Positions 1 through 64,000 are shown, counted from the stretch's first letter. The stretch is DNA of 64,000 nt from an uncultured Myxococcales bacterium (GCA_964647025.1 CAZYFU010000001.1:293-64292); one strand, 5' to 3'. The notes: generated by a model not told the origin, from the sequence alone. A program made the numbers and translations.

Positions 1-1784
1 GGGATCGCCAGGGGGCCGCCGTGGATCAGCAGGACCACGGTGGGACGCCCGCTGGCCAACACCGCACGCGCGAGCTCCATCTGCGCCCCAACCAGCTCGA
101 GACTGCTCCGATCGCCCAAGTGCGTGCTCGACCAGGCCTCGCGCGAAAGCTGCTCGTTCTGGCCGATGACCAAGATCGTCGCGTCTGCAAGAGCGGCGAC
201 CTGCTTCGCCTCCGCAATCAGCCCCCTGTCGCGCGCGGGATCCGACAACGTGACCTCGCTGTCGTTCCAACCGCGGTTTCCCTCCGTCAGGCCGCATCCC
301 TCGGCAGTCACGACTTTGACTCTGTCGCCCAGCCGCGCGCGGATCCCCTCGACGACCGACACGGTCTTGTCCGGGACGCCGCTGTAACCACCGAGGCGGC
401 AGACATCGGCGTTGGGACCAATCACGGCGAGCGACTTCAGCCGCGCGGGATCCAGGGGAAGCAAGTCGCGGTCATTCTTGAGCAGCACGATCGCCCTCTG
501 GGCAGCCCGGCGAGCGAGCGCTCGATCCGCGGCGCGTTCGGGTTCCGGGGTGACGTTCTCGACGTAGGGGTGCTCGAACAGGCCAAGCATCACTTTGAGC
601 CGGAGCACTCGCGACACGGCTTGGTCGACATCGGCCTCGGCGACCCGACCGGATTTCAGGTCCGCGAGCAGCGAGACGAACCCTTCGGGCTCGGGCAGCT
701 CGATGTCCACGCCCGCCGCGAGCGCCGAGCGCCCGGCCGACGGTAGATCCTCGACCACGTAGTGCTTGCGCGCGAGCTCGGCCACGCCGGAGTAGTCCGA
801 CACCACCACGCCCCGGAAGCCCCATTCGCCGCGCAGCAAGTCGGTGAGCATCCAACGGTTCGCGTGTGACGGCACACCGTCGATCTCGTTGTAGCTAGCC
901 ATGACTGACTCGGCCAGACCTTCGCTGAGCGCGGCCTCGAAAGGCGGCAGAAAGACCTCACGCAGGGCGCGCGGTCCGATCGCGGCAGGCGCCGTGTTGC
1001 GTCCGCCTTCGGGCTGCCCGTGGCCGGTCAGGTGCTTGGTGGTCGCGACGACGTGCTCGCCCGCGATGGCGGTGTCGTTGGACGCTCGCCGGCCTTGGAA
1101 TCCCAAGATGGCCGCCACCCCGATGCGACCGGTCAGGTAAGGATCCTCGCCGTACGTCTCCTCGATCCGCCCCCAGCGAGGATCACGAGCCACGTCGAGA
1201 ACCGGGGCCAGCACCTGCGAGACGCCACGGGCACGCATCTGTCGAGCGGCCACCTTGAAAACCTCCTCGACCAGGGACGGGTCGAACGTCGCGGCCAGCG
1301 CGATGGCTTGGGGGAAACTGGTCGCGCCCGGCGCGACGAAGCCATGCAGTCCCTCCTCGTGCAGGATCGCCGGAATCCCGAGCCGCGTCTTCTCGATCAT
1401 GAACCTCTGGAGGGCATTGGCGAACTCCACCGCTTGGCGAGGATCGTGACGATATCCAGGGCGGGTCACGTGACCAATGCCGAGAGGCATCAGCTTGCGC
1501 GCCCTCTCTTCGGAGAATTCACCGGTCCTGCGGTCGAACACGTGGGTGTTGTCCCAATTGACAGACTGCAATTGAGCGACCTTCTCGGCCTGGGTCATCC
1601 TGCCGAGGAGATCGCGGACCCGTTCGCTCAGGGGAAGGTTGGCATTTCGGTAAGCGAAGGCCGCGGCGTTCGCGGCCTTCGCGGTCGAGCTCTCTGCTCT
1701 CGTCAGGCCAGATTTGATAACCCAGCAACCGAATAGAGCAACGATCGTACCCACAATCAGTGTGGCGATCGGTCGTTTCTTCAT
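1..1784 (-). CDS. glycoside hydrolase family 3 (beta-glucosidase/BglX-like); start codon at 1784, C-terminus runs off the window start (not in ORF track because edge-truncated)
   Basis: Manual minus-strand translation from the ATG at 1784 gives MKKRPIATLIVG... with a signal peptide. GH3 hallmarks follow (KHLTGHG, GFRGVVVSDY, catalytic-Asp region). The frame stays open to position 1. Confidence 0.8.
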   Translation of the reverse strand, partial: MKKRPIATLIVGTIVALFGCWVIKSGLTRAESSTAKAANAAAFAYRNANLPLSERVRDLLGRMTQAEKVAQLQSVNWDNTHVFDRRTGEFSEERARKLMPLGIGHVTRPGYRHDPRQAVEFANALQRFMIEKTRLGIPAILHEEGLHGFVAPGATSFPQAIALAATFDPSLVEEVFKVAARQMRARGVSQVLAPVLDVARDPRWGRIEETYGEDPYLTGRIGVAAILGFQGRRASNDTAIAGEHVVATTKHLTGHGQPEGGRNTAPAAIGPRALREVFLPPFEAALSEGLAESVMASYNEIDGVPSHANRWMLTDLLRGEWGFRGVVVSDYSGVAELARKHYVVEDLPSAGRSALAAGVDIELPEPEGFVSLLADLKSGRVAEADVDQAVSRVLRLKVMLGLFEHPYVENVTPEPERAADRALARRAAQRAIVLLKNDRDLLPLDPARLKSLAVIGPNADVCRLGGYSGVPDKTVSVVEGIRARLGDRVKVVTAEGCGLTEGNRGWNDSEVTLSDPARDRGLIAEAKQVAALADATILVIGQNEQLSREAWSSTHLGDRSSLELVGAQMELARAVLASGRPTVVLLIHGGPLAI

Positions 1785-1869
1785 CGTCGCAAAATACACG
1801 ATTCGCCGCGGGTCTGCCGGCCGAAGACGCCGCCGGTGCACGCGCGAATCTAGGATCCCCACAAAATGC

Positions 1870-3186
1870 TCAGACGTCCGTCACTTGCTCGAAGCGCGGG
1901 GCCAACACATGGCCGATACCCCAGGCGAGAAGGTACGCAGAGCCGCACAAACCGAAGAGGATGGCGTAGCCGGCAGTGATGTTGCCGCTCGCCTGAAAAC
2001 GATCGAGAAGCTTGCCGCTGAAGATCGGGAAGACAATCCCGCCGACTGAGCCAGCCATCCCCCCGATGCCCACGACCGACGCGACGGCGCTCTTTGGAAA
2101 CATGTCGGACACGGTGGTGAACAGATTGGCCGACCAGGCCTGATGAGCCGCGCCGGCGATCCCGATGAGGACCACCGCGCCCCAGTCCCCCACTTGCGTG
2201 ACGAAGAGGACTGGCAACACGCTCGCAGCGAAGAGCAACATCGCGACCTTGCGCGCGCGATTGCTGGACCAGCCACGACGGATCAGGTACCCGGCCAGCC
2301 AGCCGCCAACGATGCTCAAGACCGTGACGATGGCGTAGATCGAGACCAAGTGAAGCCAGCTCTTCTCGATGTCGAGGCCACGGGTCTTCTTGAAGAAGTC
2401 GGGCAGCCAGATGAGGAAGAACCACCAAACAGGATCGGTGAGGAGCTTGCCGATGATGAACGCGTACGCCTGGCGGTAGCGAAGGATCTCGAGCCACCTC
2501 AGCGGTCGGCTCGAGCTTTGTTCGTCCCTGTCGGCGCGGATGTAGTCGAGCTCGCTCTGCCGGATGCGGGCGACGCGCTCCGGGACGTCGTAGAACGGCA
2601 ACCACACCACCAGCCATGCCAGCCCGGCGAGCCCGGCGATCACGAACGCGGATCGCCACCCCCACGTGGTGGCGATCAAAGGAATCACCGCTGGCGGCAC
2701 GATGGCGCCCACGTTCGCGCCCGAGTTGAAAAGCGCGGTGGCGAAGGCGCGCTCCTTGCGCGGGAACCACAGGGCGACGGCCTTCACTGCGGAGGGGAAG
2801 TTGCCCCCCTCGCCCACGCCGAGGGCGATGCGCGCGTGCATGAACCCGCCGATGCTGCCCACGAAGGCGTGGGCCACGGCCGCCAGGCTCCAAGCCGTGA
2901 CAGAGACCGCGTAGCCGACCTTGCTGCCCACGCGGTCGACGAATTTCCCGAACAGCAGAAGGCCGACCGCATACGCGGCCGCGAATGCCGCGTTGATGTT
3001 GCCGTACTGCTCGTTCGTCCAATGAAGCTGGTCGTCGAGGATAGGCTTGAGCAGCGCGAGGATCTGCCGGTCGATGTAGTTGATCGTCGTCGCGAGAAAC
3101 AGCAGCAGGCAAATGAGCCAACGGTAGCGACCGACGGACGCTTGCGGCGAGCTTGGGTTCACGGGGGCGACGGCGACGCTAGCCAC
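1870..3186 (-). CDS. MFS transporter, ACS family (hexuronate/sugar-acid transporter ExuT-like)
   Basis: 438 aa with 12 predicted TM segments. It carries the INYIDRQ motif typical of ACS-family MFS. It lies directly upstream of the GH3 gene on the same strand. Confidence 0.8.
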   Translation of the reverse strand: MASVAVAPVNPSSPQASVGRYRWLICLLLFLATTINYIDRQILALLKPILDDQLHWTNEQYGNINAAFAAAYAVGLLLFGKFVDRVGSKVGYAVSVTAWSLAAVAHAFVGSIGGFMHARIALGVGEGGNFPSAVKAVALWFPRKERAFATALFNSGANVGAIVPPAVIPLIATTWGWRSAFVIAGLAGLAWLVVWLPFYDVPERVARIRQSELDYIRADRDEQSSSRPLRWLEILRYRQAYAFIIGKLLTDPVWWFFLIWLPDFFKKTRGLDIEKSWLHLVSIYAIVTVLSIVGGWLAGYLIRRGWSSNRARKVAMLLFAASVLPVLFVTQVGDWGAVVLIGIAGAAHQAWSANLFTTVSDMFPKSAVASVVGIGGMAGSVGGIVFPIFSGKLLDRFQASGNITAGYAILFGLCGSAYLLAWGIGHVLAPRFEQVTDV

Positions 3187-3262: not shown

Positions 3263-4345
3263 GTGCGCTTGGCCATCACCATCGAAGAACACGTCCCGCT
3301 CGCGCCGCTCACGACCCTGGGTCTTGGCGGACCCGCGCGCTTTTTCGTCAGGGCTCGAGATCGCGCGGAGATCGAGGCTGCTCTGCGCTGGGCAGCGCAG
3401 CGAGAGCTGCCGACGTTCATCCTGGGCGAAGGATCGAACTTGGTGGTCGGTGACGCCGGGTTCTCCGGCGTGGTCGTGCAGCCCGCCGCCCGGGGACAGA
3501 CGTGGACCGAGACGGAGGATGGGTTCGCAGTCCGGGTCGCAGCAGGCGAGCCATGGGATGACGTGGTGGCCGAGTCGGTACGACGAGGCATCGCGGGCAT
3601 CGAATGCCTGTCCGGGATTCCGGGCCACACCGGCGCAGCACCCGTGCAGAACATCGGCGCCTACGGGCACGAGGTCGCCGAGGTGGTCGAGGCGGTCGAG
3701 GTGATGGATCGCGACTCGCTCGCCGTCATGACCCTGGAGCGCTCGTCCTGCGGATTCGGCTACCGCGACAGCACCTTCAAACGCGAATCAAACCGCTTCG
3801 TGATCCTTTCCGTCACGCTGAAGCTTCGCCGAGACGCAGAGCCCGTGATCCGCTACGCCGAGTTGGCCAGGGCGCTGGCGCCCCAACCACGGCCAAGCCC
3901 GGCGCACGCCCGAGAGGTCGTGCTCGCCCTGCGGCGAAAGAAGGCCATGGTGCTCGACCCCGACGACGAGAACCGCCGGAGCGCGGGATCGTTCTTCACG
4001 AATCCCGTGGTCGACGAGCGGGTTGCGAACGACCTCGTGCAGAGAGCCCTCACCGACGGCATCGTGACCGCCGCCGAGCAGGTCCCCCGCTTCGCCACGT
4101 CCGATGGTCGCGTGAAGCTCGCGGCCGGCTGGCTCATCGAGCGCTCGGGCATCCACAAGGGCCTTCGCATGGGGCCGGTGGGAATATCGACCCGGCACGC
4201 CCTGGCCCTGGTTCACCATGGCGGCGGAACAACCGCCGACCTGCTGCGCCTGGCGACACACGTTCGACAGACCGTGCTTGAACGATTCGGCATTGCGCTC
4301 ACGCCCGAGCCGGTCTTCCTGGGCTTGGATTGGCCTAGCTGCTGA
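3263..4345 (+). CDS. murB: UDP-N-acetylenolpyruvoylglucosamine reductase
   Basis: 360 aa with a GTG start. The FAD-binding N-terminal domain (ILGEGSNLVV) and the MurB C-terminal domain are both conserved. Confidence 0.88.
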   Translation: MRLAITIEEHVPLAPLTTLGLGGPARFFVRARDRAEIEAALRWAAQRELPTFILGEGSNLVVGDAGFSGVVVQPAARGQTWTETEDGFAVRVAAGEPWDDVVAESVRRGIAGIECLSGIPGHTGAAPVQNIGAYGHEVAEVVEAVEVMDRDSLAVMTLERSSCGFGYRDSTFKRESNRFVILSVTLKLRRDAEPVIRYAELARALAPQPRPSPAHAREVVLALRRKKAMVLDPDDENRRSAGSFFTNPVVDERVANDLVQRALTDGIVTAAEQVPRFATSDGRVKLAAGWLIERSGIHKGLRMGPVGISTRHALALVHHGGGTTADLLRLATHVRQTVLERFGIALTPEPVFLGLDWPSC

Positions 4346-20499: not shown

Positions 20500-20541
20500 G
20501 CGAAAAACCGAGGGCAAAGGGGTGACTCCGATGTCCGGCTG

Positions 20542-30267: not shown

Positions 30268-31800
<1,533 letters not shown>

Positions 31801-37822: not shown

Positions 37823-37824
37823 TC

Positions 37825-38760: not shown

Positions 38761-38849
38761 CACCGGGTCCCGAGGCGGCGAGCCGCTACTTCCGCGATGG
38801 CCAGCGGATGGCCCGGCCCGTGCTGCGCAGGGCGCTGCCGCTTCACCGG

Positions 38850-45813: not shown

Positions 45814-45817
45814 GGGG

Positions 45818-51233: not shown

Positions 51234-51731
51234 CTACTTTCCTCCGTTCTGCGATCGGGTCAGGGCAAGCTCCGGAAGGCCGGCGTGCTTGACGGGTCCT
51301 TGTTCCGTGTTGAGGGCCGCGGGCTCTCCGACCAAAAGCGGGCTCGACAGCTCCTCGGATGCCGTGGGGAAGTGGCCGTACGGCTCCACCTGGCCTTCGG
51401 ACACGCCCCGTCGGATGGGGAACTTGAAACGCTTGGGTCTGATCTCGGGATTGCGGAACTGCACGGTCCACATGATCTCCTCCGTGCTGCGCATGGCGCT
51501 CACGCTGGCGCCCATGGGGACGAAGTCCGAGTAGCCGCGCACCTCGATGGCCTGGTTCGGACAGAGCTTCACGCAATTGAAGCACTCCCAGCACATCACG
51601 GGGTCTCGGTTGTACGCCTTCATCTTCTGACGATCCAAGGTCATCAGATCATTGGGGCAGATGTACTGACAGGCCGTCTTGTCCAAGGCCTTGCACCCAT
51701 CACACTTGCTGGCGATGACATAACTTGGCAT
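51234..51731 (-). CDS. aprB: APS reductase beta subunit (2x[4Fe-4S])
   Basis: Start at MPSYVIASKCDGCK. Cys clusters CDGC...C...CP and CWECFNCVKLCP. 165 aa. Stop/start overlap (TGATG) with the upstream dsrP-like gene. Confidence 0.88.
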   Translation of the reverse strand: MPSYVIASKCDGCKALDKTACQYICPNDLMTLDRQKMKAYNRDPVMCWECFNCVKLCPNQAIEVRGYSDFVPMGASVSAMRSTEEIMWTVQFRNPEIRPKRFKFPIRRGVSEGQVEPYGHFPTASEELSSPLLVGEPAALNTEQGPVKHAGLPELALTRSQNGGK

Positions 51732-56514: not shown

Positions 56515-56748
56515 ATGGAGAACCTGACCGCAGAAGCACTCGCCGACGCCATGTACGCCATGGTCAAGGACTGCCACGGCAAGCGCCAGCTCAAGCCTCT
56601 CGATCTGACCAAGGCCATGATGGAACGCTTCGGCGAGGGCTGCGACAAGAGCCTGTGCAAAGAGGCCATCCGGCTGCTCATCGACGACGAGCGCTGCACC
56701 TATTCCTACGCGGGCGGCAGCTACATCGTTCTTCCTCCGGAGAAGTAG
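56515..56748 (+). CDS. dsrD: DsrD (small winged-helix protein of reductive-type dsr operons)
   Basis: 77 aa, located immediately after dsrB. The C-terminal pattern LLIDDERCTYSYAGGSYIVL resembles DsrD's ...L..DevleYwSSGSTtmY. Confidence 0.7.
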   Translation: MENLTAEALADAMYAMVKDCHGKRQLKPLDLTKAMMERFGEGCDKSLCKEAIRLLIDDERCTYSYAGGSYIVLPPEK

Positions 56749-56751: not shown

Positions 56752-58434
56752 ATGGCGCTGCTGCGAAAGAAGGAGGGCACGAAGCCGCTGCAGTTTCGCA
56801 CCAGCGCGCCGTCCAGCAGCGCGGTCTCCACGCTGCGCCCCCGGCGCACCCCCAAGTCGAGCCCCTGCCAGTCCTCTTGCCTGGCCGGGACCGACGTGCG
56901 CGGCGTGGTGGCTCTGCTCGCGCAGCGAGAGAAGCTGGGGCTGACGGTCGACCAGGCCTGCGAGCGCGCGTTCGCCCTGATCGCCGAGACCAATCCCTTC
57001 CCCGCCACGACGGGCCGCATCTGCCCCCATCGCTGCGAGGAGAACTGCAGTCGCCATCAGAAGGACGGCGGCGTTGCCGTCGGCACCATCGAGCGCTTCA
57101 TCGGAGACTTTGCCCTAGAGCATGGTCTAGCCTTGCCCGGCGGCCCGGCCTCCCCGACCCAGACCGAGAGAGTAGCGATCATCGGAGCCGGACCAGCCGG
57201 GCTTTCTTGCGCCTACCAGCTCGTGCGTCGCGGGTACGCATGCACGTTGTTCGAGGGCATGCCACAGCCCGGCGGCATGCTCCGGTACGGCATCCCGTCG
57301 TACAGACTTCCCGCGCACGTCTTCGAGGGTGAGATCGACCGCATCCTTCAGCTCGGGGTCGAGCTGCGAACGCGAACCATGATCGGTCGTGACGTCAGCT
57401 TGGACGAGCTTCGCCAGCAGTTCGCCGCCGTGTTCGTCGCCCCCGGTGCGGCGGTCAGCCGCGCAGTCGACATCCCGGGCGCGAAAGGCGCCTGTGTCTT
57501 CAGGGCCGTGGATTTCCTGCGCGACGTCGCCAGGCATGCCCCTCCAGGCCTCGGTCGTCACGTGGTCGTGGTGGGCGGGGGAAACACCGCCATCGACGCG
57601 GCCCGGGTGTCCGCACGCCTGCTCGGAGGGCACGGTGAGATCACCCTGCTTCGGCAGGAGAACGAAACCGTAGACGAGGATCTTCGCGACGCCATGGAGG
57701 AGGGCGTCTCGGTGGAGTTCCTGTCGACGTTGGACTCGGTGGTCCGCGACGCCATGGGCGGCATCGATCACGTCGTCATCCAGCGCATCGAGTTGGGAGA
57801 GAAGGACGGAAATGGCTTCCCGACGCTGATCCCCTTGGCTGGCAAGAGCTACGAGCTGCGCGCCGATGCCGTCATCCTGGCGCTGGGACAGAAGCCCAAC
57901 GTGAGCCCGATCTTCCACGAGAACCCCGACCAGTACGAGCCCGACGCCACGGGGAAGACCAAGGCGGCGCGGGTGTGGCGTGGCGGCGACGCGGTCACTC
58001 CCAGCTTCGCCGCGGTGGTCATCGGCCAGGGTCGCCAGGTTGCGTTGTCCATCGACGCCGAGCTGCGAGGCCGTCCGCTCGAAGAACCGGCCAAGCTGCC
58101 CGACCTGGCCACGAGCCGGCTCAAGCTCGAGTGCTACGATCGGATGCCGAGGCTCGGCCGGCGGCTCATTCCGGTGCGAGAGCGCCTCGCGGATCTGCAA
58201 AGCGAGATCGAGCCCGGCTACGAGCCCACCGCGGTGTTGCGAGAAGCCGCTCGCTGTCTGTCGTGCGGCAACTGCTTCGGCTGCGAGCGCTGCTGGATGT
58301 ACTGCACGCCCGGCTGCTTCTCGAAGGTCGCAAAGACGGAACCAGGAACCTACTTCACCATCAACCTCGAGAAATGCGACGGCTGCCGCAAGTGCGCCGA
58401 AGAGTGTCCGTCGAGCTTCTTGGAAATGGGCTGA
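56752..58434 (+). CDS. dsrL: GltD-family NAD(P)H:acceptor oxidoreductase with C-terminal ferredoxin domain (DsrL-like)
   Basis: FAD fold (VAIIGAGPAGLSCA) and NAD(P) fold (VVVVGGGNTAIDAA) are present. N-terminal Cys cluster (CPHRCEENC) and C-terminal 2x4Fe-4S (CLSCGNCFGCERC; CDGCRKCAEECP). Position within the dsr operon supports the call. Confidence 0.7.
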   Translation: MALLRKKEGTKPLQFRTSAPSSSAVSTLRPRRTPKSSPCQSSCLAGTDVRGVVALLAQREKLGLTVDQACERAFALIAETNPFPATTGRICPHRCEENCSRHQKDGGVAVGTIERFIGDFALEHGLALPGGPASPTQTERVAIIGAGPAGLSCAYQLVRRGYACTLFEGMPQPGGMLRYGIPSYRLPAHVFEGEIDRILQLGVELRTRTMIGRDVSLDELRQQFAAVFVAPGAAVSRAVDIPGAKGACVFRAVDFLRDVARHAPPGLGRHVVVVGGGNTAIDAARVSARLLGGHGEITLLRQENETVDEDLRDAMEEGVSVEFLSTLDSVVRDAMGGIDHVVIQRIELGEKDGNGFPTLIPLAGKSYELRADAVILALGQKPNVSPIFHENPDQYEPDATGKTKAARVWRGGDAVTPSFAAVVIGQGRQVALSIDAELRGRPLEEPAKLPDLATSRLKLECYDRMPRLGRRLIPVRERLADLQSEIEPGYEPTAVLREAARCLSCGNCFGCERCWMYCTPGCFSKVAKTEPGTYFTINLEKCDGCRKCAEECPSSFLEMG

Positions 58435-58437: not shown

Positions 58438-59889
58438 GTGCAAGCCCGGACCATCGCCATCCCCAGGATCGTCATCGCGGGCCTCGCAGGGGACTCCGGC
58501 AAGACCCTGGTGGCGGCCGGGCTCGTTCGGGCGCTCGCCAGGCGAGGCGTCCGGGTTGCACCGTACAAGAAAGGCCCTGACTACATCGATCCCGCCTGGC
58601 TCGCCGCTGCCGCCGGTCGTCCAGCCCGGACCCTCGACACGTATTTGATGTCCAGCTCGGCGTTGCGCGAATCCCTCGCCAGCGCTGGCGATGCCGATCT
58701 GGTCGTCATCGAAGGGAACCGAGGACTCTTCGATGGCATGGATGTGCAGGGCAGACATTCCACGGCCGAGCTGGCAAAGACTCTTCACGCCTCGGTCGTC
58801 CTGGTAGTCGACGTCAGCAAGGCGACCCGCACCGTCGCCGCGTTGGTGCTTGGCTGTCTGGCGTTGGATCCCTCGCTCCCTCTGGCTGGCGTGATTCTCA
58901 ATCGCGTGGGGACCCGGCGACAAGAGCAGCTGATCCGCGACGTCCTGGCCGCCACCACCTCGGTGCCAGTCCTGGGTGCGATCCCCAGGCTGAGATCAGA
59001 GCTGCTGCCTGCCCGGCACCTCGGACTCCTCATGCCCAGCGAACGGCCAGATTGCAGACAGGCTCTCGATCAGATGGCGGATGCCGTCGACGCGGGCGTC
59101 GACTGCGAGGCCATCGTCCACTTCGCCAGCGCCGCACCGCCCTTGCCGTGTGCCGAGGTCCCAGCGGCGCAGGGGCACGGAGACGCAACGGTCACCGTCG
59201 GGTACCTCAAGGACGAAGCCTTCTGTTTCTACTACTCGGAAAATCTCGCCGCCTTGGAGGCCGCCGGTGCCAAGCTGGTGCCGGTATCGCCGATTCGAGA
59301 CCGCTCGCTGCCCGCGCTCGATGCGCTATACGCCGGTGGCGGCTATCCCGAGGAGCACGCGGCTGCTCTGTCGGCGAACGGAGACTTCCGGGGCGCCCTC
59401 GCCGGCCGCATCGCCTCGGGCTTGCCGGTCTGGGCCGAGTGCGGTGGCCTCATGTACCTGGCATCGACGTTGATCACGAAGGGCAATGCCTTCCCCATGG
59501 TGGGCGCCTTGCCGTTGACTGTCGAGCAGACCAATCGGGTCCAGGCGCATGGCTACGTGGAGGCCACCGTCGACACGCCCAATCCGTTTCTTTCGGTGGG
59601 AACCAAGCTCCGAGGCCACGAGTTCCACTACTCGAAGTTGGCAGAGCCGACGGCTCCGTTGACCAGCGCACTGTTCCTCGATCGCGGCGTCGGCGTGGGC
59701 GCCGGTCGCGACGGAATCGTCCAGGGCCGGGTCTTTGCCAGCTACGCACACGTCTTCGCGCCTGGTACGCCGACGTGGGCGCCCGCACTGGTGCGCGCGG
59801 CGCACGAAGCGCGACGACAGACTTGCCCCAACCCCATCGCAATAGGAGACCGCTGTGGCATCAATAACAGTCCAGAACCTGCAAATTGA
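58438..59889 (+). CDS. dsrN: cobyrinic acid a,c-diamide synthase homolog (siroheme amidase DsrN)
   Basis: CbiA/CobB family: N-terminal ATPase (AGLAGDSGKT) plus C-terminal glutamine amidotransferase domain (GLPVWAECGGLMYL). GTG start. Located in the dsr operon. Confidence 0.8.
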   Translation: MQARTIAIPRIVIAGLAGDSGKTLVAAGLVRALARRGVRVAPYKKGPDYIDPAWLAAAAGRPARTLDTYLMSSSALRESLASAGDADLVVIEGNRGLFDGMDVQGRHSTAELAKTLHASVVLVVDVSKATRTVAALVLGCLALDPSLPLAGVILNRVGTRRQEQLIRDVLAATTSVPVLGAIPRLRSELLPARHLGLLMPSERPDCRQALDQMADAVDAGVDCEAIVHFASAAPPLPCAEVPAAQGHGDATVTVGYLKDEAFCFYYSENLAALEAAGAKLVPVSPIRDRSLPALDALYAGGGYPEEHAAALSANGDFRGALAGRIASGLPVWAECGGLMYLASTLITKGNAFPMVGALPLTVEQTNRVQAHGYVEATVDTPNPFLSVGTKLRGHEFHYSKLAEPTAPLTSALFLDRGVGVGAGRDGIVQGRVFASYAHVFAPGTPTWAPALVRAAHEARRQTCPNPIAIGDRCGINNSPEPAN

Positions 59890-60172
59890 AATCGACGAGG
59901 ACGGTTTCATTCAAGAGCCCGACAAGTGGAGCGAGGCCGTCGCCGCCGCATTGGCTGCCACCGAGGGCGTGGGTGAGCTTGGCGAAAGACACTGGGTGCT
60001 GATCAACTATCTGCGCGACTACTACAAGAAGTTCGGCATGGCCCCCATGATTCGAAAGATGTGCAAGGAGGTGAACATGAAGCTTACCGAGGTCTACGAG
60101 CTGTTCCCGACCGGCCCGGCCAAGGGCGCCTGCAAAGCCGCGGGCCTGCCCAAGCCCACGGGTTGCGTTTGA
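59855..60172 (+). CDS. dsrC: DsrC (TusE/DsrC family sulfur carrier)
   Basis: 105 aa. N-terminal VDEDGF motif. C-terminal arm ...CKAAGLPKPTGCV carries the two conserved Cys. Confidence 0.9.
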   Translation: MASITVQNLQIEIDEDGFIQEPDKWSEAVAAALAATEGVGELGERHWVLINYLRDYYKKFGMAPMIRKMCKEVNMKLTEVYELFPTGPAKGACKAAGLPKPTGCV

Positions 60173-60182: not shown

Positions 60183-61193
60183 ATGGGCAGACACCTGACG
60201 ATGCACCTGGGCGGCGCGCTCGGCGCCGTGCTCATCGCTTGCGGTCTGCCCATGTTGGCCGTCGCCGTCACTGGACGCGGCTGGCTGGTGGCGCTCTCGG
60301 TGGCGGTTCTTGCCGTACCGTTCCTCGTCGTGGGCTTCGTCGCGAAGCTTCTCCGGTGGATTCGCGTTCCCATCCCCTTCCGCATTCCACTCACGGTCGG
60401 GCAGCAGCGCTCGTTGCGCACGGTCGGCCATCAGCGAACCCTCACACCTCACACCGCGCCCCAGGCCGTCGCCCGAGCAGTCCTCGACATCGGCCTCTTT
60501 CGTCCCCTGACCCGAACCACGCCCAGCGCCCGCTCGCTCGGCGACGGCTTGGACCACGGCGCCACGCGGACACTCTGGCTCGCGGCCGGACTGCTCCACC
60601 TTTCCCTGGCCGTGATCCTCGTTCGCCACGCGCGCATGTTCCTCGAGCCCGTGCCGAGCTTCGTCGTCTGGCTGGAGGACATCGACTCGGTGGGTGAGGT
60701 CACGCTGCCGAGACTTCACGCGAGCAGCCTGGTGTTCGGTTTCGCGCTCCTGTTCCTGCTTGGCAGGCGGCTCTGGCTGGCCAGACTGCGCTACATCTCC
60801 CTGGCTGCCGACTACTTCCCGCTGCTGTTGCTCTTGGCTATCGCCACCTTCGGCCTGCTCACCAGGCACGTGACCGGCTCCGACGTTCCGGCGCTGAAGC
60901 AAGCGCTCGTCGGCCTGACCGGGGGATCGCTCGCGCTCCCCGCGACGATGGATCTCTTCCTGGTCGTGCATGTGTTCCTGATTGGTGTGCTCCTGGTCTA
61001 CTTCCCACTGAGCAAGCTCATGCACGCCCCCGGGGCTTGGCTGAGCCCGACGCTGACCATGGCGAACACGAACCGCGAGCGGCGCCACGAGAACCCCAAC
61101 AATGCTTCCGTCGAGGTCCTCCACTACGCCGACTACGAGGACGCCTTTCGTGGCCCGATGATCGCCGCGGGTCTGCCAGTCGAGAAGGAGTGA
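60183..61193 (+). CDS. dsrM: DsrM (NarI/HdrE-like membrane cytochrome b)
   Basis: 336 aa with 5-6 TM helices and conserved His in TM2/TM5. Located immediately upstream of dsrK. Confidence 0.8.
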   Translation: MGRHLTMHLGGALGAVLIACGLPMLAVAVTGRGWLVALSVAVLAVPFLVVGFVAKLLRWIRVPIPFRIPLTVGQQRSLRTVGHQRTLTPHTAPQAVARAVLDIGLFRPLTRTTPSARSLGDGLDHGATRTLWLAAGLLHLSLAVILVRHARMFLEPVPSFVVWLEDIDSVGEVTLPRLHASSLVFGFALLFLLGRRLWLARLRYISLAADYFPLLLLLAIATFGLLTRHVTGSDVPALKQALVGLTGGSLALPATMDLFLVVHVFLIGVLLVYFPLSKLMHAPGAWLSPTLTMANTNRERRHENPNNASVEVLHYADYEDAFRGPMIAAGLPVEKE

Positions 61194-61194: not shown

Positions 61195-62817
61195 ATGGCG
61201 GCCAAACCCGACAGCCCCGACTACTACGACAAGGCCCGGCTGGAACGGGTCGATCACCGCCCACCACACGCGCCGTGGCGAGACCTGGCGACGACCTTCC
61301 AGCCCGGCAATTTCCTTCACCCCGCGAAACCCAAGAACCTCGAGGCCATGGGGTTGCCGTCCGCGCACGCGTGGTCCCCGCTCGATGAGGACTGGAAGCT
61401 GCCCGACAACTGGAAGCAGATAGTCATCGATGGCATGCGCGAGCGGCTGGCCGCCTCGCGAACCCTGCGCCTGTTCATGGACACCTGCGTGCGTTGCGGT
61501 GCCTGCGCCGAGAAGTGTCCTATCTTCATCGGGACCGGCGATCCAAAGAACATGCCGGTGTTGAGGGCCGAGCTTCTACGCTCGGTCTACCGAAGGTACT
61601 TCACCACGGCTGGCCGTATCATGGGCGAGCTGGCAGGCGCCCGCGAGCTCGACGAGGCGGTCATCAAGGAATGGTTCAAGTACTTCTTCCAATGCACCGA
61701 GTGCCGACGCTGCGCCGTCTTCTGCCCCTACGGCATCGACACCGCCGAGATCACCATGCTGGGCCGCGATCTGCTGCTGCGACTGGGCCTGTCGGCCAAC
61801 TGGGTCATGGAGCCGGTCGCGAACTCATACCGCACCGGCAATCACCTGGGCATCCAGCCCCAAGGGGTGAAGGACTCGCTGGAGTTCCTGGCCGATGAGC
61901 TGGAAGAGGTGACCGGCATCCGCGTCGACGTACCCATCAACCGAAAGGGCGCCGACATCCTGTTCGTCACACCGTCGGGAGACTTGATTGCCGATCCCGG
62001 AACCTACACGGCGATGGGGTACCTGGCCCTGTTTCACGAGCTGGGGCTCAACTACACCTTCAGCACTTACGCTTCCGAGGGCGGCAACTTCGGGCTGTTC
62101 GCGTCGCCCGAGCTGATGAAACGTCTGAACGCGAAGATCTACGCCGAGGCCAAGCGGCTGGGCGTGAAATGGATCCTGGGTGGCGAGTGCGGACACATGT
62201 GGCGCGTGGTCCACCAGTACATGGACACCATGAACGGCCAGGCGAGCTTCCTCGAGGTGCCGACCTCACCCATCACCGGCACGCGCTTCGAGCACGCCCG
62301 CGGGACCAAGATGGTCCACATCGCGGAGTTCACCGCCGACCTCATCGCGCACGGCAAGCTCAGGCTCGACCCGAGCCGCAACGCCGCGGTGCGAGCCACG
62401 TTTCACGACTCCTGCAACCCTGCCCGGGCCATGGGGCTTCTGGAAGAGCCGCGCGACATCTTGCGTGCCGTCTGCAGCGAGTTCCACGAGATGGCAGCGG
62501 ACACCATCCGCGAGCGCACCCTGTGCTGCGGGGGCGGTGCCGGCCTGGCCGCCGACGAGAACATGGAGGTCCGTTTGCGCGCCGGCATGGGGCGGGGCAA
62601 GGCGGTGCAGCAGGTTCGCGATGCGCACGGCGTGAACACCCTGGTCACCATCTGCGCCATCGACCGAGCCACCTTGACCACGGTGTGCGACTACTGGTCC
62701 CCCGGCGTCCGCGTGGCGGGGCTTCACGAGCTGGTTGCCAATGCCCTGGTGATGAAGGGCGAGAAGCCGCGCGAATTGAACCTCCGCCAGGAACCCATCG
62801 CCGCGAGGCAAGCGTGA
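61195..62817 (+). CDS. dsrK: DsrK (HdrD-like, CCG-domain FeS protein)
   Basis: 540 aa. 2x4Fe-4S motifs (CVRCGACAEKCP, CTECRRCAVFCP). CCG-domain Cys (CCGGGAG, C..C). AAGGAG RBS. Confidence 0.88.
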   Translation: MAAKPDSPDYYDKARLERVDHRPPHAPWRDLATTFQPGNFLHPAKPKNLEAMGLPSAHAWSPLDEDWKLPDNWKQIVIDGMRERLAASRTLRLFMDTCVRCGACAEKCPIFIGTGDPKNMPVLRAELLRSVYRRYFTTAGRIMGELAGARELDEAVIKEWFKYFFQCTECRRCAVFCPYGIDTAEITMLGRDLLLRLGLSANWVMEPVANSYRTGNHLGIQPQGVKDSLEFLADELEEVTGIRVDVPINRKGADILFVTPSGDLIADPGTYTAMGYLALFHELGLNYTFSTYASEGGNFGLFASPELMKRLNAKIYAEAKRLGVKWILGGECGHMWRVVHQYMDTMNGQASFLEVPTSPITGTRFEHARGTKMVHIAEFTADLIAHGKLRLDPSRNAAVRATFHDSCNPARAMGLLEEPRDILRAVCSEFHEMAADTIRERTLCCGGGAGLAADENMEVRLRAGMGRGKAVQQVRDAHGVNTLVTICAIDRATLTTVCDYWSPGVRVAGLHELVANALVMKGEKPRELNLRQEPIAARQA

Positions 62818-63194
62818 TGGACGTCGGGAAGATCGTCGGCGGAGCCGTCATCGCGGCCGTGATCGCCGCCGGCCCGCTGTGGGTCGCCACCGTGCGCGGC
62901 GCGAAGACCGAACCACTTGCGCAGCCCATCGGGACTGGGCCATGCATCGAGGCCGCGGACGCCATGCGCACGCGCCACCCGGCCCTGCTCTCCACATGGC
63001 GCGAACAGGTGGTTCGCGAAGGCCAGCGCGCCTATCACACCACCGATGGACGCGACGTACGCATCGGCCTCGGCGAGACCTGCCTCGGCTGCCACGGCGA
63101 GGCCAGCAAGTTCTGCGACCGCTGCCACGCCCAGAATGCCGTCACGCTCTCTTGCTGGCAGTGCCATGCACAGTCGCCGATCGCGCGACCTTAG
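62817..63194 (+). CDS. dsrJ: DsrJ (periplasmic triheme cytochrome c)
   Basis: 125 aa. TM/signal anchor at the N-terminus. Three CxxCH motifs (CLGCH, CDRCH, CWQCH). Start overlaps the dsrK stop (ATGA-type). Confidence 0.8.
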   Translation: MDVGKIVGGAVIAAVIAAGPLWVATVRGAKTEPLAQPIGTGPCIEAADAMRTRHPALLSTWREQVVREGQRAYHTTDGRDVRIGLGETCLGCHGEASKFCDRCHAQNAVTLSCWQCHAQSPIARP

Positions 63195-63254
63195 GGTCCC
63201 TCGAGCTGCTATGAGTAAGAGCTAGTCCGGAAGAAACAAGGAAGAGAAGACCGC

Positions 63255-64000
63255 ATGTACCCCATCATGCTCGATCTGCGCGGGCGGCCCTGTCTGCTCG
63301 TCGGCGCAGGCCCCATCGCGCATCGCAAGCTAATGTCTTTGCTGGCCGAAGACGCGCGCGTGACGGTGGTCGCGCCGACCGCGATAGAACCGATCGCGCA
63401 GCTAGCCGCAGCCGGAGCCATCGCACTGCACAAGCGGCCTTTCGCCGACGACGATGTGTCCGGCGCCGCGCTGGTGTTCGTCGCCACCGGCAAGCCCGAG
63501 GTCGACGAAAAGGTCGCGCAGGCCGCGCGGACTCGCGGTGTCTGGATCAACGTCGCGGACGTGCCTGCGCTTTGCGACTTTCACCTGCCGTCGCGCATTC
63601 AGCGCGGCGACCTCCAGATGGCCATCGCGTCGGGGGGGAACGCCCCGTTCGCGGTGCGCAGGTTGCGACAACTGCTCGACGCGAGGCTGGGTCCGGCGTG
63701 GATCGGGTGGATAGCCGCGGCCAAGAGATTCCGTCAGCGCGTGCAAGCAGCCAAGCTTCCTCCGGCTGCGGCCGACGGGGCGTTCGACCGCTTCGTGGCC
63801 AAGACCGTGGATCCGTCGACGCTCGCGGTGCGCGCCCCCACGGCCGATGAAGAGACCGCGTGGCTTTCCGACGACGCCCCCGCGAAGCCAGGACGCGTCG
63901 CCCTGGTCGGCGCGGGGCCGGGCAACCCCGGGCTGCTCACGGTGCGAGGCCTGCAGCTCCTGCGCACGGCCGACGCCGTCGTGTACGACCGACTGGCGAT
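63255..64000 (+). CDS. cysG: siroheme synthase (CysG: precorrin-2 dehydrogenase/ferrochelatase N-domain + uroporphyrinogen-III C-methyltransferase); runs off window end
   Basis: Manual translation from the ATG at 63255 gives [26 protein letters not shown]... (NAD-binding CysG-N). The methyltransferase motif [19 protein letters not shown]...ADAVVYDRL appears near the window end. Confidence 0.8.

What the first reader, a model, noticed from the sequence alone, without database searches (positions are those of the whole stretch)
1..64000. Lineage context: very high GC with Myxococcota-like gene content, combined with complete dissimilatory sulfate reduction
The window has 68-70% GC, pervasive antisense ghost ORFs, abundant lipoproteins, DUF1302/LolA-like/MMPL, sigma54-EBPs, and type III PKS remnants. 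These point to a myxobacteria-like or similarly GC-rich lineage rather than classical Desulfobacterota, whose GC is usually much lower. Dissimilatory sulfate reduction in such a background would extend the known phylogenetic range of the pathway. The organism also appears to invest in sulfated lipids.
Basis: inference. Interest (0 to 1): 0.55.

Follow-up and report, generated by a model that had tools for sequence, protein, structure and literature searches.

The report
Sulfate-respiration genes in uncultured myxobacterium
This 64-kb stretch comes from an uncultured anaerobic relative of the myxobacteria (class Polyangia) that carries nearly the whole gene set for breathing sulfate or sulfite, but such myxobacterial genomes have been described since 2018-2023, so it adds a member to a known group and does not widen the known range.

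Summary
GC is 65.3%, not 68-70%. The listed gene content is real. The window holds aprBA, qmoABC, dsrOP, dsrAB, a DsrD-position gene, dsrL, dsrN, dsrC, dsrMKJ and cysG. It holds no dissimilatory ATP sulfurylase (Sat), so "complete" sulfate reduction is not shown here. The only sulfate-activating genes, cysD and cysN/C, sit in a separate sulfation cluster.

The lineage guess is right. The apr/qmo/dsr locus is colinear with a Stordalen Mire MAG, "Myxococcales bacterium fen_1138", at 59-89% amino-acid identity. DsrAB clusters with MAGs labelled Polyangiaceae, one of which GTDB places in Polyangiaceae, genus FEN-1139. The only named MurB relatives are Polyangia.

The novelty claim is out of date. 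Dsr-pathway Myxococcota, with DsrD and DsrL-2, are in Diao et al. 2023, Murphy et al. 2021 and a 2026 Danish MAG survey.

Side findings:
- The DsrL of this clade lacks the YRR NADP(H) motif.
- The DsrD-position protein is not recognised by the Pfam or NCBIfam searches.
- An 11-gene sulfation/export module is conserved in many metagenome contigs, mostly from JGI.
- A type III PKS cluster is decayed.

Overall: a new member of a known kind, of low to moderate interest.

The parts
3263..4345 (+). murB, a housekeeping marker
   Evidence: Pfam MurB_C + FAD_binding_4. A 100% identical protein is held in NCBI and Logan. The only named relatives among the top 120 are Polyangia.
9857..10984 (-). Membrane-anchored PAPS-type sulfotransferase; first gene of the sulfation/export module
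   Evidence: Pfam Sulfotransfer_3/_1. It has an N-terminal hydrophobic helix and a GNPRTGTTF motif. 205 relatives in metagenome contigs, the top 80 at 70-92% identity.
11011..11985 (-). DHH/DHHA1 phosphoesterase (candidate pAp phosphatase, inferred)
   Evidence: Pfam DHHA1. A DHH motif is visible in the sequence. It lies next to the sulfotransferase in 60 of 80 related loci.
11982..13922 (-). cysN/cysC fusion (GTP-dependent ATP sulfurylase large subunit + APS kinase)
   Evidence: NCBIfam NF004035, 1037 bits against a cut-off of 715.
13922..14854 (-). cysD (ATP sulfurylase small subunit)
   Evidence: NCBIfam NF009214, 546 bits against a cut-off of 413.
14888..15697 (-). LolA-like periplasmic protein
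   Evidence: Pfam LolA_like 6.7e-52, with a weak DUF1329 hit.
15710..17278 (-). DUF1302 outer-membrane protein
   Evidence: Pfam DUF1302. Resembles AmeA.
17199..18275 (-). KAS III-like condensing enzyme
   Evidence: Pfam ACP_syn_III_C/ACP_syn_III. All NCBIfam FabH-type hits are below their cut-offs.
19024..20517 (-). FadL/TodX-like outer-membrane channel
   Evidence: Pfam Toluene_X.
22713..24470 (+). Arylsulfate sulfotransferase (ASST)-like protein, inside a lower-GC insert
   Evidence: Pfam Arylsulfotrans. GC is 61-63% here. In related loci the best matches to it are only 24-43% identical, much lower than for the other module genes.
26037..28514 (-). MMPL / HAE3-type RND transporter; last gene of the module
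   Evidence: Pfam MMPL. Best NCBIfam match TIGR00921 HAE3, below cut-off.
30268..31800 (+). sigma54 enhancer-binding protein (the only one found)
   Evidence: Pfam Sigma54_activat + HTH_8. A 67% identical homologue lies directly upstream of dsrA in L003.
31856..33118 (+). ATP-dependent phosphofructokinase
   Evidence: NCBIfam NF005301, 583 bits. Not informative for taxonomy.
36656..39951 (+). Decayed type III PKS cluster: internally deleted KS, ACP, frameshifted FAD oxidoreductase, C-terminal half of a type III PKS, and a broken methyltransferase
   Evidence: Three-frame translation. Pfam fragments only.
44584..45852 (-). qmoC
   Evidence: NCBIfam NF038018, 318.6 bits against a cut-off of 300.
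45818..48055 (-). qmoB (HdrA-like with a FlpD/MvhD domain)
   Evidence: Pfam FlpD + Pyr_redox_2 + Fer4. Position is between qmoA and qmoC.
48059..49381 (-). qmoA (HdrA-like flavoprotein)
   Evidence: Pfam and NCBIfam HdrA-like hits. It lies immediately downstream of aprA.
49327..51231 (-). aprA
   Evidence: NCBIfam TIGR02061, 864 bits against a cut-off of 642.
51234..51731 (-). aprB
   Evidence: NCBIfam TIGR02060, 188 bits against a cut-off of 136. Pfam APS-reductase_C.
51731..52963 (-). dsrP (NrfD family)
   Evidence: NCBIfam NF045798, 317 bits, just below the cut-off of 350. Pfam NrfD.
52960..53745 (-). dsrO (Tat-exported FeS protein)
   Evidence: NCBIfam NF045797, 275 bits against a cut-off of 200. 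An SRRALL twin-arginine motif is present.
54230..55408 (+). dsrA
   Evidence: NCBIfam TIGR02064, 550 bits against a cut-off of 393. 465-508 bits to solved DsrA chains of sulfate reducers.
55405..56511 (+). dsrB
   Evidence: NCBIfam TIGR02066, 485 bits against a cut-off of 341.5.
56515..56748 (+). 77-aa winged-helix protein in the DsrD position
   Evidence: Follows dsrB in 70 of 80 loci. AF2 model pLDDT 91.8, winged helix. No Pfam DsrD hit at E <= 1 and no NCBIfam hit at E <= 1e-5. hhalign against 1UCR is not significant.
56752..58434 (+). dsrL-type NAD(P)H oxidoreductase, a variant without the YRR motif
   Evidence: Domain architecture. All FeS cysteines are conserved, and it scores 380-550 bits to the YRR-type DsrLs. 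The YRR..EMPA stretch is replaced by LLR--QENE.
58438..59889 (+). dsrN (CobB-like amidase, siroheme amidation)
   Evidence: NCBIfam NF002204, 432 bits. Position is between dsrL and dsrC.
59855..60172 (+). dsrC
   Evidence: Pfam DsrC 1e-36. The C-terminus ...CKAAGLPKPTGCV carries both conserved cysteines.
60183..61193 (+). dsrM
   Evidence: NCBIfam NF038037, 309.6 bits against a cut-off of 300.
61195..62817 (+). dsrK
   Evidence: NCBIfam NF045796, 680 bits against a cut-off of 400.
62817..63194 (+). dsrJ (three CxxCH haem sites)
   Evidence: NCBIfam NF038038, 115 bits against a cut-off of 100. Sequence.
63255..63998 (+). cysG (sirohaem synthase), cut by the window end
   Evidence: Pfam NAD_binding_7 + Sirohm_synth_M + start of TP_methylase.

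Best explanation
The window is a chromosomal segment of an uncultured, probably anaerobic member of the phylum Myxococcota, class Polyangia. Its nearest public relative for the sulfur locus is the Stordalen Mire MAG "Myxococcales bacterium fen_1138". The same organism, or a very close one, is present in metagenomes of full-scale anaerobic digesters.

It carries two divergent operons. One is dsrO-dsrP-aprB-aprA-qmoA-qmoB-qmoC. The other is dsrA-dsrB-(DsrD-position gene)-dsrL-dsrN-dsrC-dsrM-dsrK-dsrJ-cysG.

Inferred mechanism, from established knowledge of these families:
- APS is reduced to sulfite by AprBA, with electrons from the membrane QmoABC complex.
- Sulfite is reduced by sirohaem DsrAB together with DsrC.
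- The DsrC trisulfide is reduced by DsrMKJOP, releasing sulfide and coupling to the quinone pool.
- DsrL feeds pyridine-nucleotide electrons to DsrAB.
- DsrN and CysG make the amidated sirohaem.

The step sulfate -> APS is not accounted for in the window, since there is no Sat. The cysD-cysN/C genes belong to a separate, conserved PAPS-dependent sulfation/export module. The pathway is of the reductive bacterial DsrAB + DsrD-position + DsrL type already described in Myxococcota, Acidobacteriota and other phyla. The window therefore adds a member to a known group and does not extend the phylogenetic range.
For: Shown:
- Gene identities at equivalog level.
- Colinearity with L007 (fen_1138): DsrA 85%, DsrB 89%, DsrC 87%, DsrK 85%, AprA 82%, DsrO/P 76%, DsrL 71%.
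- The best full-length DsrA hits among the GTDB species representatives are Polyangiaceae-labelled MAGs and MFD01476.bin.3.99 at 76-78%, then Anaeromyxobacteraceae at 71-75%. MAGs labelled as other phyla start at 62-72%.
- A neighbour-joining DsrAB tree puts the window in a clade with L001-L005.
- L003 is GTDB Myxococcota; Polyangiia; Polyangiales; Polyangiaceae; g__FEN-1139.
- MurB: an identical protein is in NCBI, and the three named relatives are all Polyangia.
- The left arm is syntenic in contigs whose MurB is 78-84% identical.
- Composition and GC3 are uniform across both arms.
- The exact MurB is found in run SRR8925738, a biogas-plant digestate metagenome from PRJNA533495. It is also found in SRR8925774. 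That run is not itself listed in either paper, but its neighbours in the same numbering series are anaerobic-digester runs.
- Prior publication of Dsr-pathway Myxococcota.
Against: - The window has no rRNA, tRNA or ribosomal-protein marker, so phylum placement rests on MurB, on dsr/apr/qmo neighbours and on MAG labels supplied by submitters or derived from GTDB.
- PFK is uninformative. About 70% identity hits are everywhere, and its one named hit is Verrucomicrobiota.
- DsrAB in Myxococcota is polyphyletic (L014, L037, L039 and L046 scatter; lateral transfer is stated). Affiliation based on dsr alone could mislead.
- Sat is absent from the window.
- DsrL lacks the NADP(H) motif.
- The DsrD-position protein cannot be tied to DsrD by sequence.
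- The direction of the pathway (reduction, disproportionation or oxidation) cannot be read from sequence (Loffler et al. 2020).
Confidence: 0.8

Rival explanations
1. The contig belongs to a classical high-GC sulfate reducer (Desulfobacterota), or to another dsr-bearing phylum such as Acidobacteriota, and only looks myxobacterial.
For: 65% GC is, from my own knowledge, compatible with some Desulfobacterota. DsrA hits in Acidobacteriota, Planctomycetota and Gemmatimonadota reach 62-72%. PFK has a Verrucomicrobiota-named hit.
Against: No MAG labelled as a classical sulfate-reducing genus appears among the 80 best DsrA loci. The closest loci for every dsr/apr/qmo gene are Myxococcota MAGs with conserved gene order. 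The named MurB relatives are only Polyangia.
Confidence: 0.05
2. The lineage is myxobacterial, but the Dsr/Apr system does not serve sulfate respiration. It works in sulfite, thiosulfate or organosulfonate reduction, in sulfur disproportionation, or in reverse (sulfide/sulfur oxidation).
For: There is no Sat in 64 kb, whereas 14 of 80 related loci carry sat within 10 kb of dsrA. DsrL is present, and DsrL-2 organisms may reduce, oxidise or switch. DsrL here lacks YRR, the motif tied to NADPH-driven sulfite reduction. The DsrD-position protein is not demonstrably DsrD. The Fen-1118 Polyangia MAG is scored sat=0, cysD=1, cysN=1 in Diao's Table S1.
Against: AprBA and QmoABC are present, which makes sense only if APS is an intermediate. 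No dsrEFH is present. DsrAB sits among lineages the literature calls reductive. The organism occurs in anoxic digesters. The dsrA-positive Myxococcota MAG columns visible in the Danish survey table all have sat, so sat is probably elsewhere in the genome.
Confidence: 0.25
3. The dsr/apr/qmo region is a recent lateral acquisition or an assembly/binning chimera, so it says nothing about the lineage of the rest of the contig.
For: Diao et al. list Myxococcota among the taxa that acquired dsrAB by lateral transfer. Myxococcota DsrAB sequences are scattered in the tree.
Against: GC and GC3 of the dsr arm (65.9-66.7%; GC3 0.77-0.89) match the rest of the window. The window's DsrAB forms a coherent clade with the Polyangiaceae-labelled MAG loci L001-L005, which points to inheritance within the group. 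fen_1138 (L007) was left out of that tree because its DsrA match is partial, but it is the closest locus by identity and gene order. The source contig is 131,880 bp long. Independent Logan assemblies reproduce the MurB neighbourhood, about 9 kb of the left arm.
Confidence: 0.07

Closest known systems
Dsr-pathway Myxococcota MAGs (Diao et al. 2023, PMC10591310; Murphy et al. 2021 preprint 10.1101/2021.07.06.451402; Danish MAG preprint 10.64898/2026.07.10.737566)
   Same: Same phylum. They carry reductive bacterial-type dsrAB with a dsrD-position gene and dsrL, plus aprBA, qmoABC and dsrMKJOP. They are uncultured and come from anoxic or wetland habitats.
   Different: The families named in those papers are Anaeromyxobacteraceae, Fen-1088/Blaeremorphaceae, UBA5297, UBA6930, JAFGIB01 and others. 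No Polyangiaceae appears in Diao's Table S1. The window's DsrA is at most 85% identical to any GTDB species representative.
apr-qmo-dsr locus of "Myxococcales bacterium fen_1138" (PNBO01000393.1, locus L007)
   Same: Identical gene order: qmoA-aprA-aprB-dsrP-dsrO, then divergently dsrA-B-D-L-N-C-M-K. Identity is 59-89%. The DsrL has the same variant motif (TLLRQENE). GC is similar, 66.4% against 65.3%.
   Different: It is a different species-level lineage. The dsrA match in L007 covers only residues 7-343.
dsrABDL-N-C-MK clusters of Acidobacteriota such as Ca. Sulfopaludibacter (L064) and of other DsrL-2C lineages
   Same: Same operon logic and the same small winged-helix gene after dsrB. DsrA is 62-72% identical.
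   Different: Their DsrL keeps YRR(T/S)xxEMPA, in 58 of 58 cases. The window's clade has lost it, in 6 of 6 cases.
Canonical Desulfovibrio-type pathway (Sat, AprBA, QmoABC, DsrAB, DsrD, DsrC, DsrMKJOP)
   Same: All parts except Sat are present. DsrA scores 465-508 bits to solved DsrA chains of sulfate reducers.
   Different: The window adds DsrL. The DsrD-position protein does not match Pfam DsrD or the D. vulgaris DsrD structure sequence. No Sat is present in the window.
AmeABCD HAE3-RND cassette of Castellaniella defragrans (PMC6394551). By analogy from my own knowledge, also the NodPQ-NodH and mycobacterial CysDNC-Stf-MmpL8 sulfation systems.
   Same: A DUF1302 outer-membrane protein, a LolA-superfamily periplasmic protein and an HAE3-type RND transporter are clustered. 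A CysD-CysN/C PAPS supply lies next to a sulfotransferase.
   Different: No AmeC (COG4447) homologue was seen. The window adds a KAS III-like enzyme, a FadL-like channel, a DHH/DHHA1 protein and lipoproteins. The acceptor molecule is unknown.

Membership tests
Myxococcota, class Polyangia (lineage of the contig) | Phylogenomic placement with conserved single-copy markers (GTDB-Tk) or 16S rRNA | not testable with these tools
   The window has no rRNA, tRNA or ribosomal proteins, and the rest of the genome is not available.
Myxococcota, class Polyangia (lineage of the contig) | The closest relatives of a housekeeping gene (MurB) belong to the taxon | tested here: met
   All three named proteins among the top 120 MurB hits are "Polyangia bacterium", at 58-61% identity.
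Myxococcota, class Polyangia (lineage of the contig) | A second housekeeping gene (PFK) agrees | tested here: inconclusive
   There is a plateau of about 70% identity hits. The only named one is Verrucomicrobiota.
Myxococcota, class Polyangia (lineage of the contig) | Synteny and best hits of the sulfur locus lie in genomes classified in the taxon | tested here: met
   L007, L001-L005 and L003 (GTDB Polyangiaceae g__FEN-1139).
Reductive bacterial-type DsrAB | DsrA and DsrB are full length and above curated cut-offs | tested here: met
   TIGR02064 550 bits (cut-off 393) and TIGR02066 485 bits (cut-off 341.5).
Reductive bacterial-type DsrAB | Placement in the reductive clade, not the oxidative clade, of a reference DsrAB tree | not tested
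Relatives in the same neighbourhood are called reductive in the literature.
Reductive bacterial-type DsrAB | No dsrEFH next to dsrAB | tested here: met
   No DsrE/F/H family hit among the window genes.
DsrD (allosteric activator of DsrAB) | Sequence match to Pfam DsrD (PF08679) or to D. vulgaris DsrD (PDB 1UCR) | tested here: not met
   No Pfam hit at E <= 1. A profile of 66 homologues finds no DsrD chain in the PDB at E <= 10. hhalign against the verified 1UCR sequence gives E 0.26 and probability 0.24%.
DsrD (allosteric activator of DsrAB) | Small (about 78 aa) winged-helix protein encoded directly downstream of dsrB | tested here: met
   77 aa. The AF2 model has pLDDT 91.8 with three helices and a beta-hairpin. 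Foldseek returns winged-helix domains, including Z-alpha domains. It occupies this position in 70 of 80 loci.
DsrL-2 (NADP(H):DsrAB oxidoreductase) | N-terminal two-cluster domain, FAD/NAD(P) domains and a C-terminal two-cluster ferredoxin domain; encoded next to dsrAB | tested here: met
   Fer4_20 + Pyr_redox_2 + Fer4_21. All cluster cysteines are 100% conserved, and it scores 380-550 bits to the dsrABD-linked DsrLs against 298 bits for the best non-DsrL PDB chain.
DsrL-2 (NADP(H):DsrAB oxidoreductase) | YRR motif in the NAD(P)-binding domain (Loffler et al. 2020) | tested here: not met
   The window reads ...EITLLR--QENETV.... The same loss occurs in L007, L002, L003, L004 and L005, while 58 of 58 other DsrLs have YRR.
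DsrMKJOP complex | All five subunits are present | tested here: met
   DsrM 309.6 (cut-off 300), DsrK 680 (400), DsrJ 115 (100), DsrO 275 (200). DsrP scores 317, just under its cut-off of 350. The genes are split between two divergent operons.
Complete canonical dissimilatory sulfate reduction (Sat-AprBA-QmoABC-DsrAB-DsrC-DsrMKJOP) | Homo-oligomeric ATP sulfurylase Sat | tested here: not met
   Absent from the window. It may lie elsewhere in the genome, because the dsrA-positive Myxococcota MAG columns visible in the cut table all carry sat.
Complete canonical dissimilatory sulfate reduction (Sat-AprBA-QmoABC-DsrAB-DsrC-DsrMKJOP) | AprBA and QmoABC | tested here: met
   aprA 864 (cut-off 642), aprB 188 (136), qmoC 318.6 (300), and HdrA-like qmoA and qmoB in the expected order.
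AmeABCD-type HAE3 RND export cassette | DUF1302 outer-membrane protein + LolA-superfamily periplasmic protein + HAE3 RND transporter + COG4447 periplasmic protein | tested here: inconclusive
   The first three are present, with the HAE3 match below cut-off. No AmeC-like protein was identified.

The most novel reading that the evidence does not exclude
The Polyangia clade to which this window belongs runs a modified Dsr pathway. Its DsrL has lost the YRR 2'-phosphate site, which would mean a changed NADH/NADPH preference, or a changed role, for the enzyme that feeds DsrAB. It may also lack Sat altogether, so that APS would come from the GTP-driven CysDN. In addition, the neighbouring 11-gene sulfotransferase/CysDNC/LolA-DUF1302-MMPL module, conserved in many metagenome contigs (mostly from JGI), may make a so far undescribed sulfated envelope lipid.
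Probability: 0.15. Interest if true: 0.55.

Novelty: new member of a known kind. Interest (0 to 1): 0.27.

Why it matters
The main point, sulfate/sulfite respiration genes in a myxobacterial background, matters for who drives sulfur cycling in wetlands, sediments and digesters, but it is already in the literature. This window adds one more genome. It is possibly Polyangiaceae-affiliated, a family not listed in the 2023 census, and it is seen in biogas-plant metagenomes.

Three by-products could be of more use:
- Published surveys read DsrL-2C and DsrD as pointers to the direction of the pathway. Here the DsrL lacks the YRR motif, and the Pfam and NCBIfam searches do not find the DsrD-position protein. 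A related Polyangia MAG is scored dsrL=0 in Diao's Table S1, though whether its dsrL is absent or was missed is not known.
- Sat is not linked to the locus in this clade, so pathway completeness has to be checked on whole genomes.
- A conserved, uncharacterised sulfation/export module is a concrete target for lipid chemistry.

Tried and rejected
- Exact look-ups of two window proteins failed because my start codons differed from the gene caller's. They became unnecessary once the MurB search returned the identical protein.
- PFK as a taxonomic marker was uninformative.
- I first read 28.5-30.2 kb as an unannotated gap or pseudogene. Re-translation shows an intact Metallophos lipoprotein gene on the minus strand.
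- A sigma54 promoter scan gave 27 matches, equal to the chance expectation. The one good site 25 nt upstream of dsrA is not conserved in L007 or L003, so it is left as a note.
- DsrD membership was tested with Pfam, NCBIfam, a PDB profile search, hhalign and a fold search. Only fold class and position agree.
- Rfam and tRNA scans found nothing.
- Literature searches for the sulfation module found nothing relevant.
- I considered a Fen-1088/Blaeremorphaceae affiliation, because those MAGs have GC 0.64-0.65, against a Polyangiaceae affiliation suggested by the DsrAB clade. The family cannot be decided from the window.
- I considered whether the YRR loss is unique. It is not. Other DsrL-like cluster representatives also deviate: P0367, P0372, P0374, P0376 and P0377.

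Full report
**Observation**

The window is 65.3% GC overall. The 4-kb windows span 61.3-67.8%. The 1-kb windows span 56-69.9% with a median of 65.9%, and only 6 of 64 reach 68%. There are 157 ORFs of at least 150 aa against about 52 real genes. I called those genes by third-position GC (mean GC3 0.83). The "ghost ORFs" are real but are the normal consequence of this composition.

Pfam and NCBIfam scans confirm the named gene content:
- GH3, MFS, MurB, PAP2, aldose epimerase and VWA.
- A sulfotransferase, a DHH/DHHA1 protein, a CysN/CysC fusion and CysD.
- LolA_like, DUF1302, a KAS III-like enzyme and a FadL-like channel.
- An ASST-like protein, an MMPL/HAE3 transporter and a Metallophos lipoprotein.
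- One sigma54 enhancer-binding protein, PFK, MatE and a histidine kinase/response regulator pair.
- A decayed polyketide cluster, Usp and PEMT, followed by the sulfur locus.

About five proteins have a lipobox.

**The sulfur locus**

On the minus strand lie:
- dsrO (52960-53745, Tat signal)
- dsrP (51731-52963)
- aprB (51234-51731)
- aprA (49327-51231)
- qmoA, qmoB and qmoC (48059-49381, 45818-48055, 44584-45852)

Divergently, on the plus strand, lie:
- dsrA (54230-55408)
- dsrB (55405-56511)
- a 77-aa gene (56515-56748)
- dsrL (56752-58434)
- dsrN (58438-59889)
- dsrC (59855-60172)
- dsrM (60183-61193)
- dsrK (61195-62817)
- dsrJ (62817-63194, three CxxCH sites)
- the start of cysG (63255 to the window end)

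DsrA, DsrB, DsrM, DsrK, DsrJ, DsrO, AprA, AprB and QmoC all exceed the NCBIfam equivalog cut-offs. DsrP is just under its cut-off, at 317 against 350 bits. DsrC has both C-terminal cysteines. DsrA scores 465-508 bits to solved DsrA chains of sulfate reducers.

What is missing is Sat. No called gene has an ATP-sulfurylase domain. No RNPxHxxH or GRDHAG motif occurs in any frame. A Sat taken from locus L040 finds nothing in the window. By contrast, 14 of the 80 related loci carry sat within 10 kb of dsrA. So "complete dissimilatory sulfate reduction" is not shown in the window. The only sulfate-activating genes present, cysD and cysN/C, lie 30 kb away in a different functional context.

**Lineage**

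The best hits were:
- Polyangiaceae-labelled MAGs and MFD01476.bin.3.99, at 76-78%.
- A partial match at 85% to "Myxococcales bacterium fen_1138".
- Anaeromyxobacteraceae, at 71-75%.
- MAGs labelled as other phyla (Acidobacteriota, Planctomycetota, Gemmatimonadota, Ignavibacteria, Zixibacteria and others), at 62-72%.

tblastn of all window proteins against these loci shows that the whole arrangement is colinear with fen_1138 at 59-89% identity. That arrangement is qmoA-aprA-aprB-dsrP-dsrO, then divergently dsrABD-L-N-C-M-K. A neighbour-joining tree of concatenated DsrAB puts the window in one clade with L001-L005. Other Myxococcota-labelled sequences are scattered, which agrees with the multiple lateral transfers proposed by Diao et al..

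L003, which is MFD01476.bin.3.99, is classified by GTDB as Myxococcota; Polyangiia; Polyangiales; Polyangiaceae; g__FEN-1139.

Independently of the sulfur genes, MurB has a 100% identical entry in NCBI on a contig of 131,880 bp. Its only named relatives among the top 120 are three "Polyangia bacterium" proteins. PFK is not informative. The left arm is syntenic in metagenome contigs whose MurB is 78-84% identical.

The class-level assignment to Polyangia is therefore well supported. The family (Polyangiaceae or Fen-1088/Blaeremorphaceae) is open.

The identical MurB is found in run SRR8925738, which belongs to the digestate metagenomes of full-scale biogas plants in PRJNA533495. It is also found in SRR8925774. 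That run is not listed in either paper, but neighbouring runs in the same numbering series are anaerobic-digester runs. This fits an anaerobic way of life.

**Comparison with what is known**

Diao et al. [quoted passage not shown] They list Myxococcota among the taxa that obtained dsrAB laterally. Their Table S1 includes Anaeromyxobacteraceae R267, Myxococcaceae FEN-1143, Polyangia Fen-1088/Fen-1118, B64-G9 and XYA12-FULL-58-9.

Murphy et al. [quoted passage not shown]

A 2026 preprint on Danish MAGs reports the pathway in 6 of 90 Myxococcota MAGs.

The GC argument is also weak, because, from my own knowledge, several classical sulfate reducers have 63-66% GC. The window is a new member: its DsrA is at most 85% identical to any species representative, and the family Polyangiaceae is absent from the 2023 census.

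**How it most likely works**

What is shown: the genes, their order and their family memberships.

What is inferred from established knowledge of these families:
- AprBA reduces APS with electrons from QmoABC.
- DsrAB and DsrC reduce sulfite.
- DsrMKJOP re-reduces DsrC and links the process to the quinone pool.
- DsrN and CysG supply amidated sirohaem.
- DsrL passes pyridine-nucleotide electrons to DsrAB.

The direction of the pathway cannot be proved from sequence. Several points favour reduction: the DsrD-position gene, the absence of dsrEFH, the presence of AprBA and QmoABC, and the anoxic habitat. Sat is probably elsewhere in the genome, because the dsrA-positive Myxococcota MAG columns visible in the Danish table all have sat. 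The Fen-1118 MAG is scored sat=0 with cysD and cysN present, but that MAG is incomplete.

**Two family-level deviations**

(1) DsrL. Loffler et al. 2020 give a YRR motif as the hallmark of all DsrL-2 enzymes and relate it to strict NADP(H) use. In an alignment of 64 dsrABD-linked DsrLs from the fetched loci plus the window's own, 58 have ...LYRR(T/S)xxEMPA.... The window and the five loci of its clade (L007, L002, L003, L004 and L005) have ...LLR--QENE... or ...VLR--RRNP.... Solved NfnB-like homologues also carry YRR where the window has a deletion. All iron-sulfur cysteines are conserved, and the protein is much closer to the other DsrLs (380-550 bits) than to any solved non-DsrL homologue (298 bits). 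So it is a divergent DsrL, not a different paralogue. L001, in the same clade, has no dsrL at all. A full-library search shows only one close cluster representative, at 62% identity and also without YRR. It also shows that a few other DsrL-like representatives deviate at this site. The loss is therefore clade-specific but not unique.

(2) The 77-aa protein after dsrB. It is conserved in 70 of 80 loci and is predicted with high confidence to be a winged helix. Beyond that, no sequence test ties it to DsrD:
- It gets no Pfam DsrD hit at E <= 1 and no NCBIfam hit at E <= 1e-5.
- The sources name its database homologues "hypothetical protein" or, in a few cases, MurR/RpiR-family regulator. None carries a Pfam domain.
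- A 66-sequence profile does not find D. vulgaris DsrD in the PDB.
- hhalign to the verified 1UCR sequence is not significant.

Published surveys call this gene dsrD with custom models. Here, only position, size and fold class agree.

**The sulfation remark**

Between 9857 and 28514 lie these genes:
- a membrane-anchored sulfotransferase
- a DHH/DHHA1 protein
- CysN/C and CysD
- LolA_like and DUF1302
- a KAS III-like enzyme
- lipoproteins
- a FadL-like channel
- an HAE3-type MMPL transporter

The sulfotransferase has 205 relatives in metagenome contigs, mostly from JGI, and the top 80 are 70-92% identical. In every long contig the other genes of the set are present. In three of the four contigs examined in detail the operons are arranged differently. 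That is good evidence for a functional module. The MurB/VWA side is not conserved, so the module starts at the sulfotransferase.

The LolA/DUF1302/HAE3 trio resembles the AmeABCD exporter of apolar compounds. The nearest solved sulfotransferases are 2Z6V and 2ZQ5, followed by weak matches to hydroxysteroid and bile-salt sulfotransferases. The PDB annotates both top chains as uncharacterised. From memory, not verified here, they are mycobacterial Stf-family enzymes.

A sulfated hydrophobic envelope molecule is thus a fair inference, but the acceptor is unknown, and I found no paper on the module.

**Other items**

The type III PKS region (36.6-40 kb) is truly decayed. It holds:
- a ketosynthase missing its middle
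- an ACP
- a frameshifted FAD oxidoreductase
- only the C-terminal half of the type III PKS
- a broken methyltransferase

**Verdict**

The lineage inference is correct. The novelty claim is already covered by the literature. The window is a new member of a known kind. The DsrL variant and the sulfation module are the items most worth a further look.

Noticed in passing
window 56752-58434 (residues about 300-312); also L007, L002, L003, L004, L005: The DsrL of this Polyangia DsrAB clade lacks the YRR(T/S)xxEMPA stretch and reads LLR--QENE or VLR--RRNP instead. That stretch is regarded as diagnostic for NADP(H)-specific DsrL-2. The other 58 dsrABD-linked DsrLs all keep it. All FeS cysteines are conserved. 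Some other DsrL-like cluster representatives also deviate at this site.
   Followed up: yes
window 56515-56748: The 77-aa winged-helix protein that follows dsrB (in 70 of 80 loci) is not recognised by the Pfam DsrD or NCBIfam searches, and a profile of it does not reach D. vulgaris DsrD (1UCR). The sources name its database homologues "hypothetical protein" or, in a few cases, MurR/RpiR-family regulator. Position, size and fold class match DsrD.
   Followed up: yes
window 9857-28514; loci L085-L164: An 11-gene module is kept together through rearrangements in many metagenome contigs, mostly from JGI. It comprises a sulfotransferase, DHH/DHHA1, CysN/C, CysD, LolA_like, DUF1302, KAS III-like, lipoproteins, FadL-like and HAE3/MMPL. 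The sulfotransferase is 70-92% identical across these contigs. The product is unknown and no literature was found.
   Followed up: partly
window 20500-26000: A lower-GC stretch (61-63%) inside the module holds three lipobox proteins without Pfam hits and an ASST-like arylsulfate sulfotransferase. In related loci the best matches to the ASST-like protein are only 24-43% identical, so this looks like an insertion.
   Followed up: partly
window 36656-39951: A pseudogenised type III PKS cluster: a KS with an internal deletion, an ACP, a frameshifted FAD oxidoreductase, half of a chalcone-synthase-like PKS, and a broken methyltransferase. From my own knowledge, its layout recalls alkylresorcinol (Srs/Ars-type) clusters.
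   Followed up: partly
window 54190-54205 (+) and 53799-53814 (-): Sigma54-type -24/-12 elements occur in the dsrO/dsrA intergenic region: CGGCAC-N5-TTGCT, 25 nt upstream of the dsrA start, and CGGCAC-N5-GTGCT facing dsrO. In L003 a sigma54 activator, 67% identical to the window's, sits directly upstream of dsrA. However, the number of matches in the window equals chance, and the site is not conserved in L007 or L003.
   Followed up: partly
L001 (CAYRKE010000162.1): This member of the same DsrAB clade has dsrABD followed directly by dsrN, with no dsrL. DsrL therefore appears dispensable or unstable in this clade.
   Followed up: no
L004 and L005 (CAYVRP010000011.1 and CAYVRP010000025.1): One Polyangiaceae MAG carries two contigs with almost identical dsr loci. 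This is either a true duplication or two strains binned together.
   Followed up: no
L084 11903-14103: In a relative whose MurB is 84% identical, an IS66-family element (TnpB plus a DDE transposase) is inserted between the VWA gene and the sulfotransferase. That is exactly the boundary of the conserved module.
   Followed up: no
Logan contigs L081-L083 (runs SRR8925774, SRR8925738, SRR24540823): The identical MurB neighbourhood was assembled independently from SRR8925738, which is a biogas-plant digestate metagenome (PRJNA533495). SRR8925774 is not itself listed in the papers read, but neighbouring runs in the same numbering series are anaerobic-digester runs. SRR24540823 was not identified. 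This points to an anaerobic habitat for this Polyangia lineage.
   Followed up: partly
window 28468-30150 (-): An intact Metallophos/PhoD-like lipoprotein gene is hidden under a 977-aa ORF whose upstream extension overlaps the sigma54 activator gene on the opposite strand. My GC3-based gene call missed it.
   Followed up: yes
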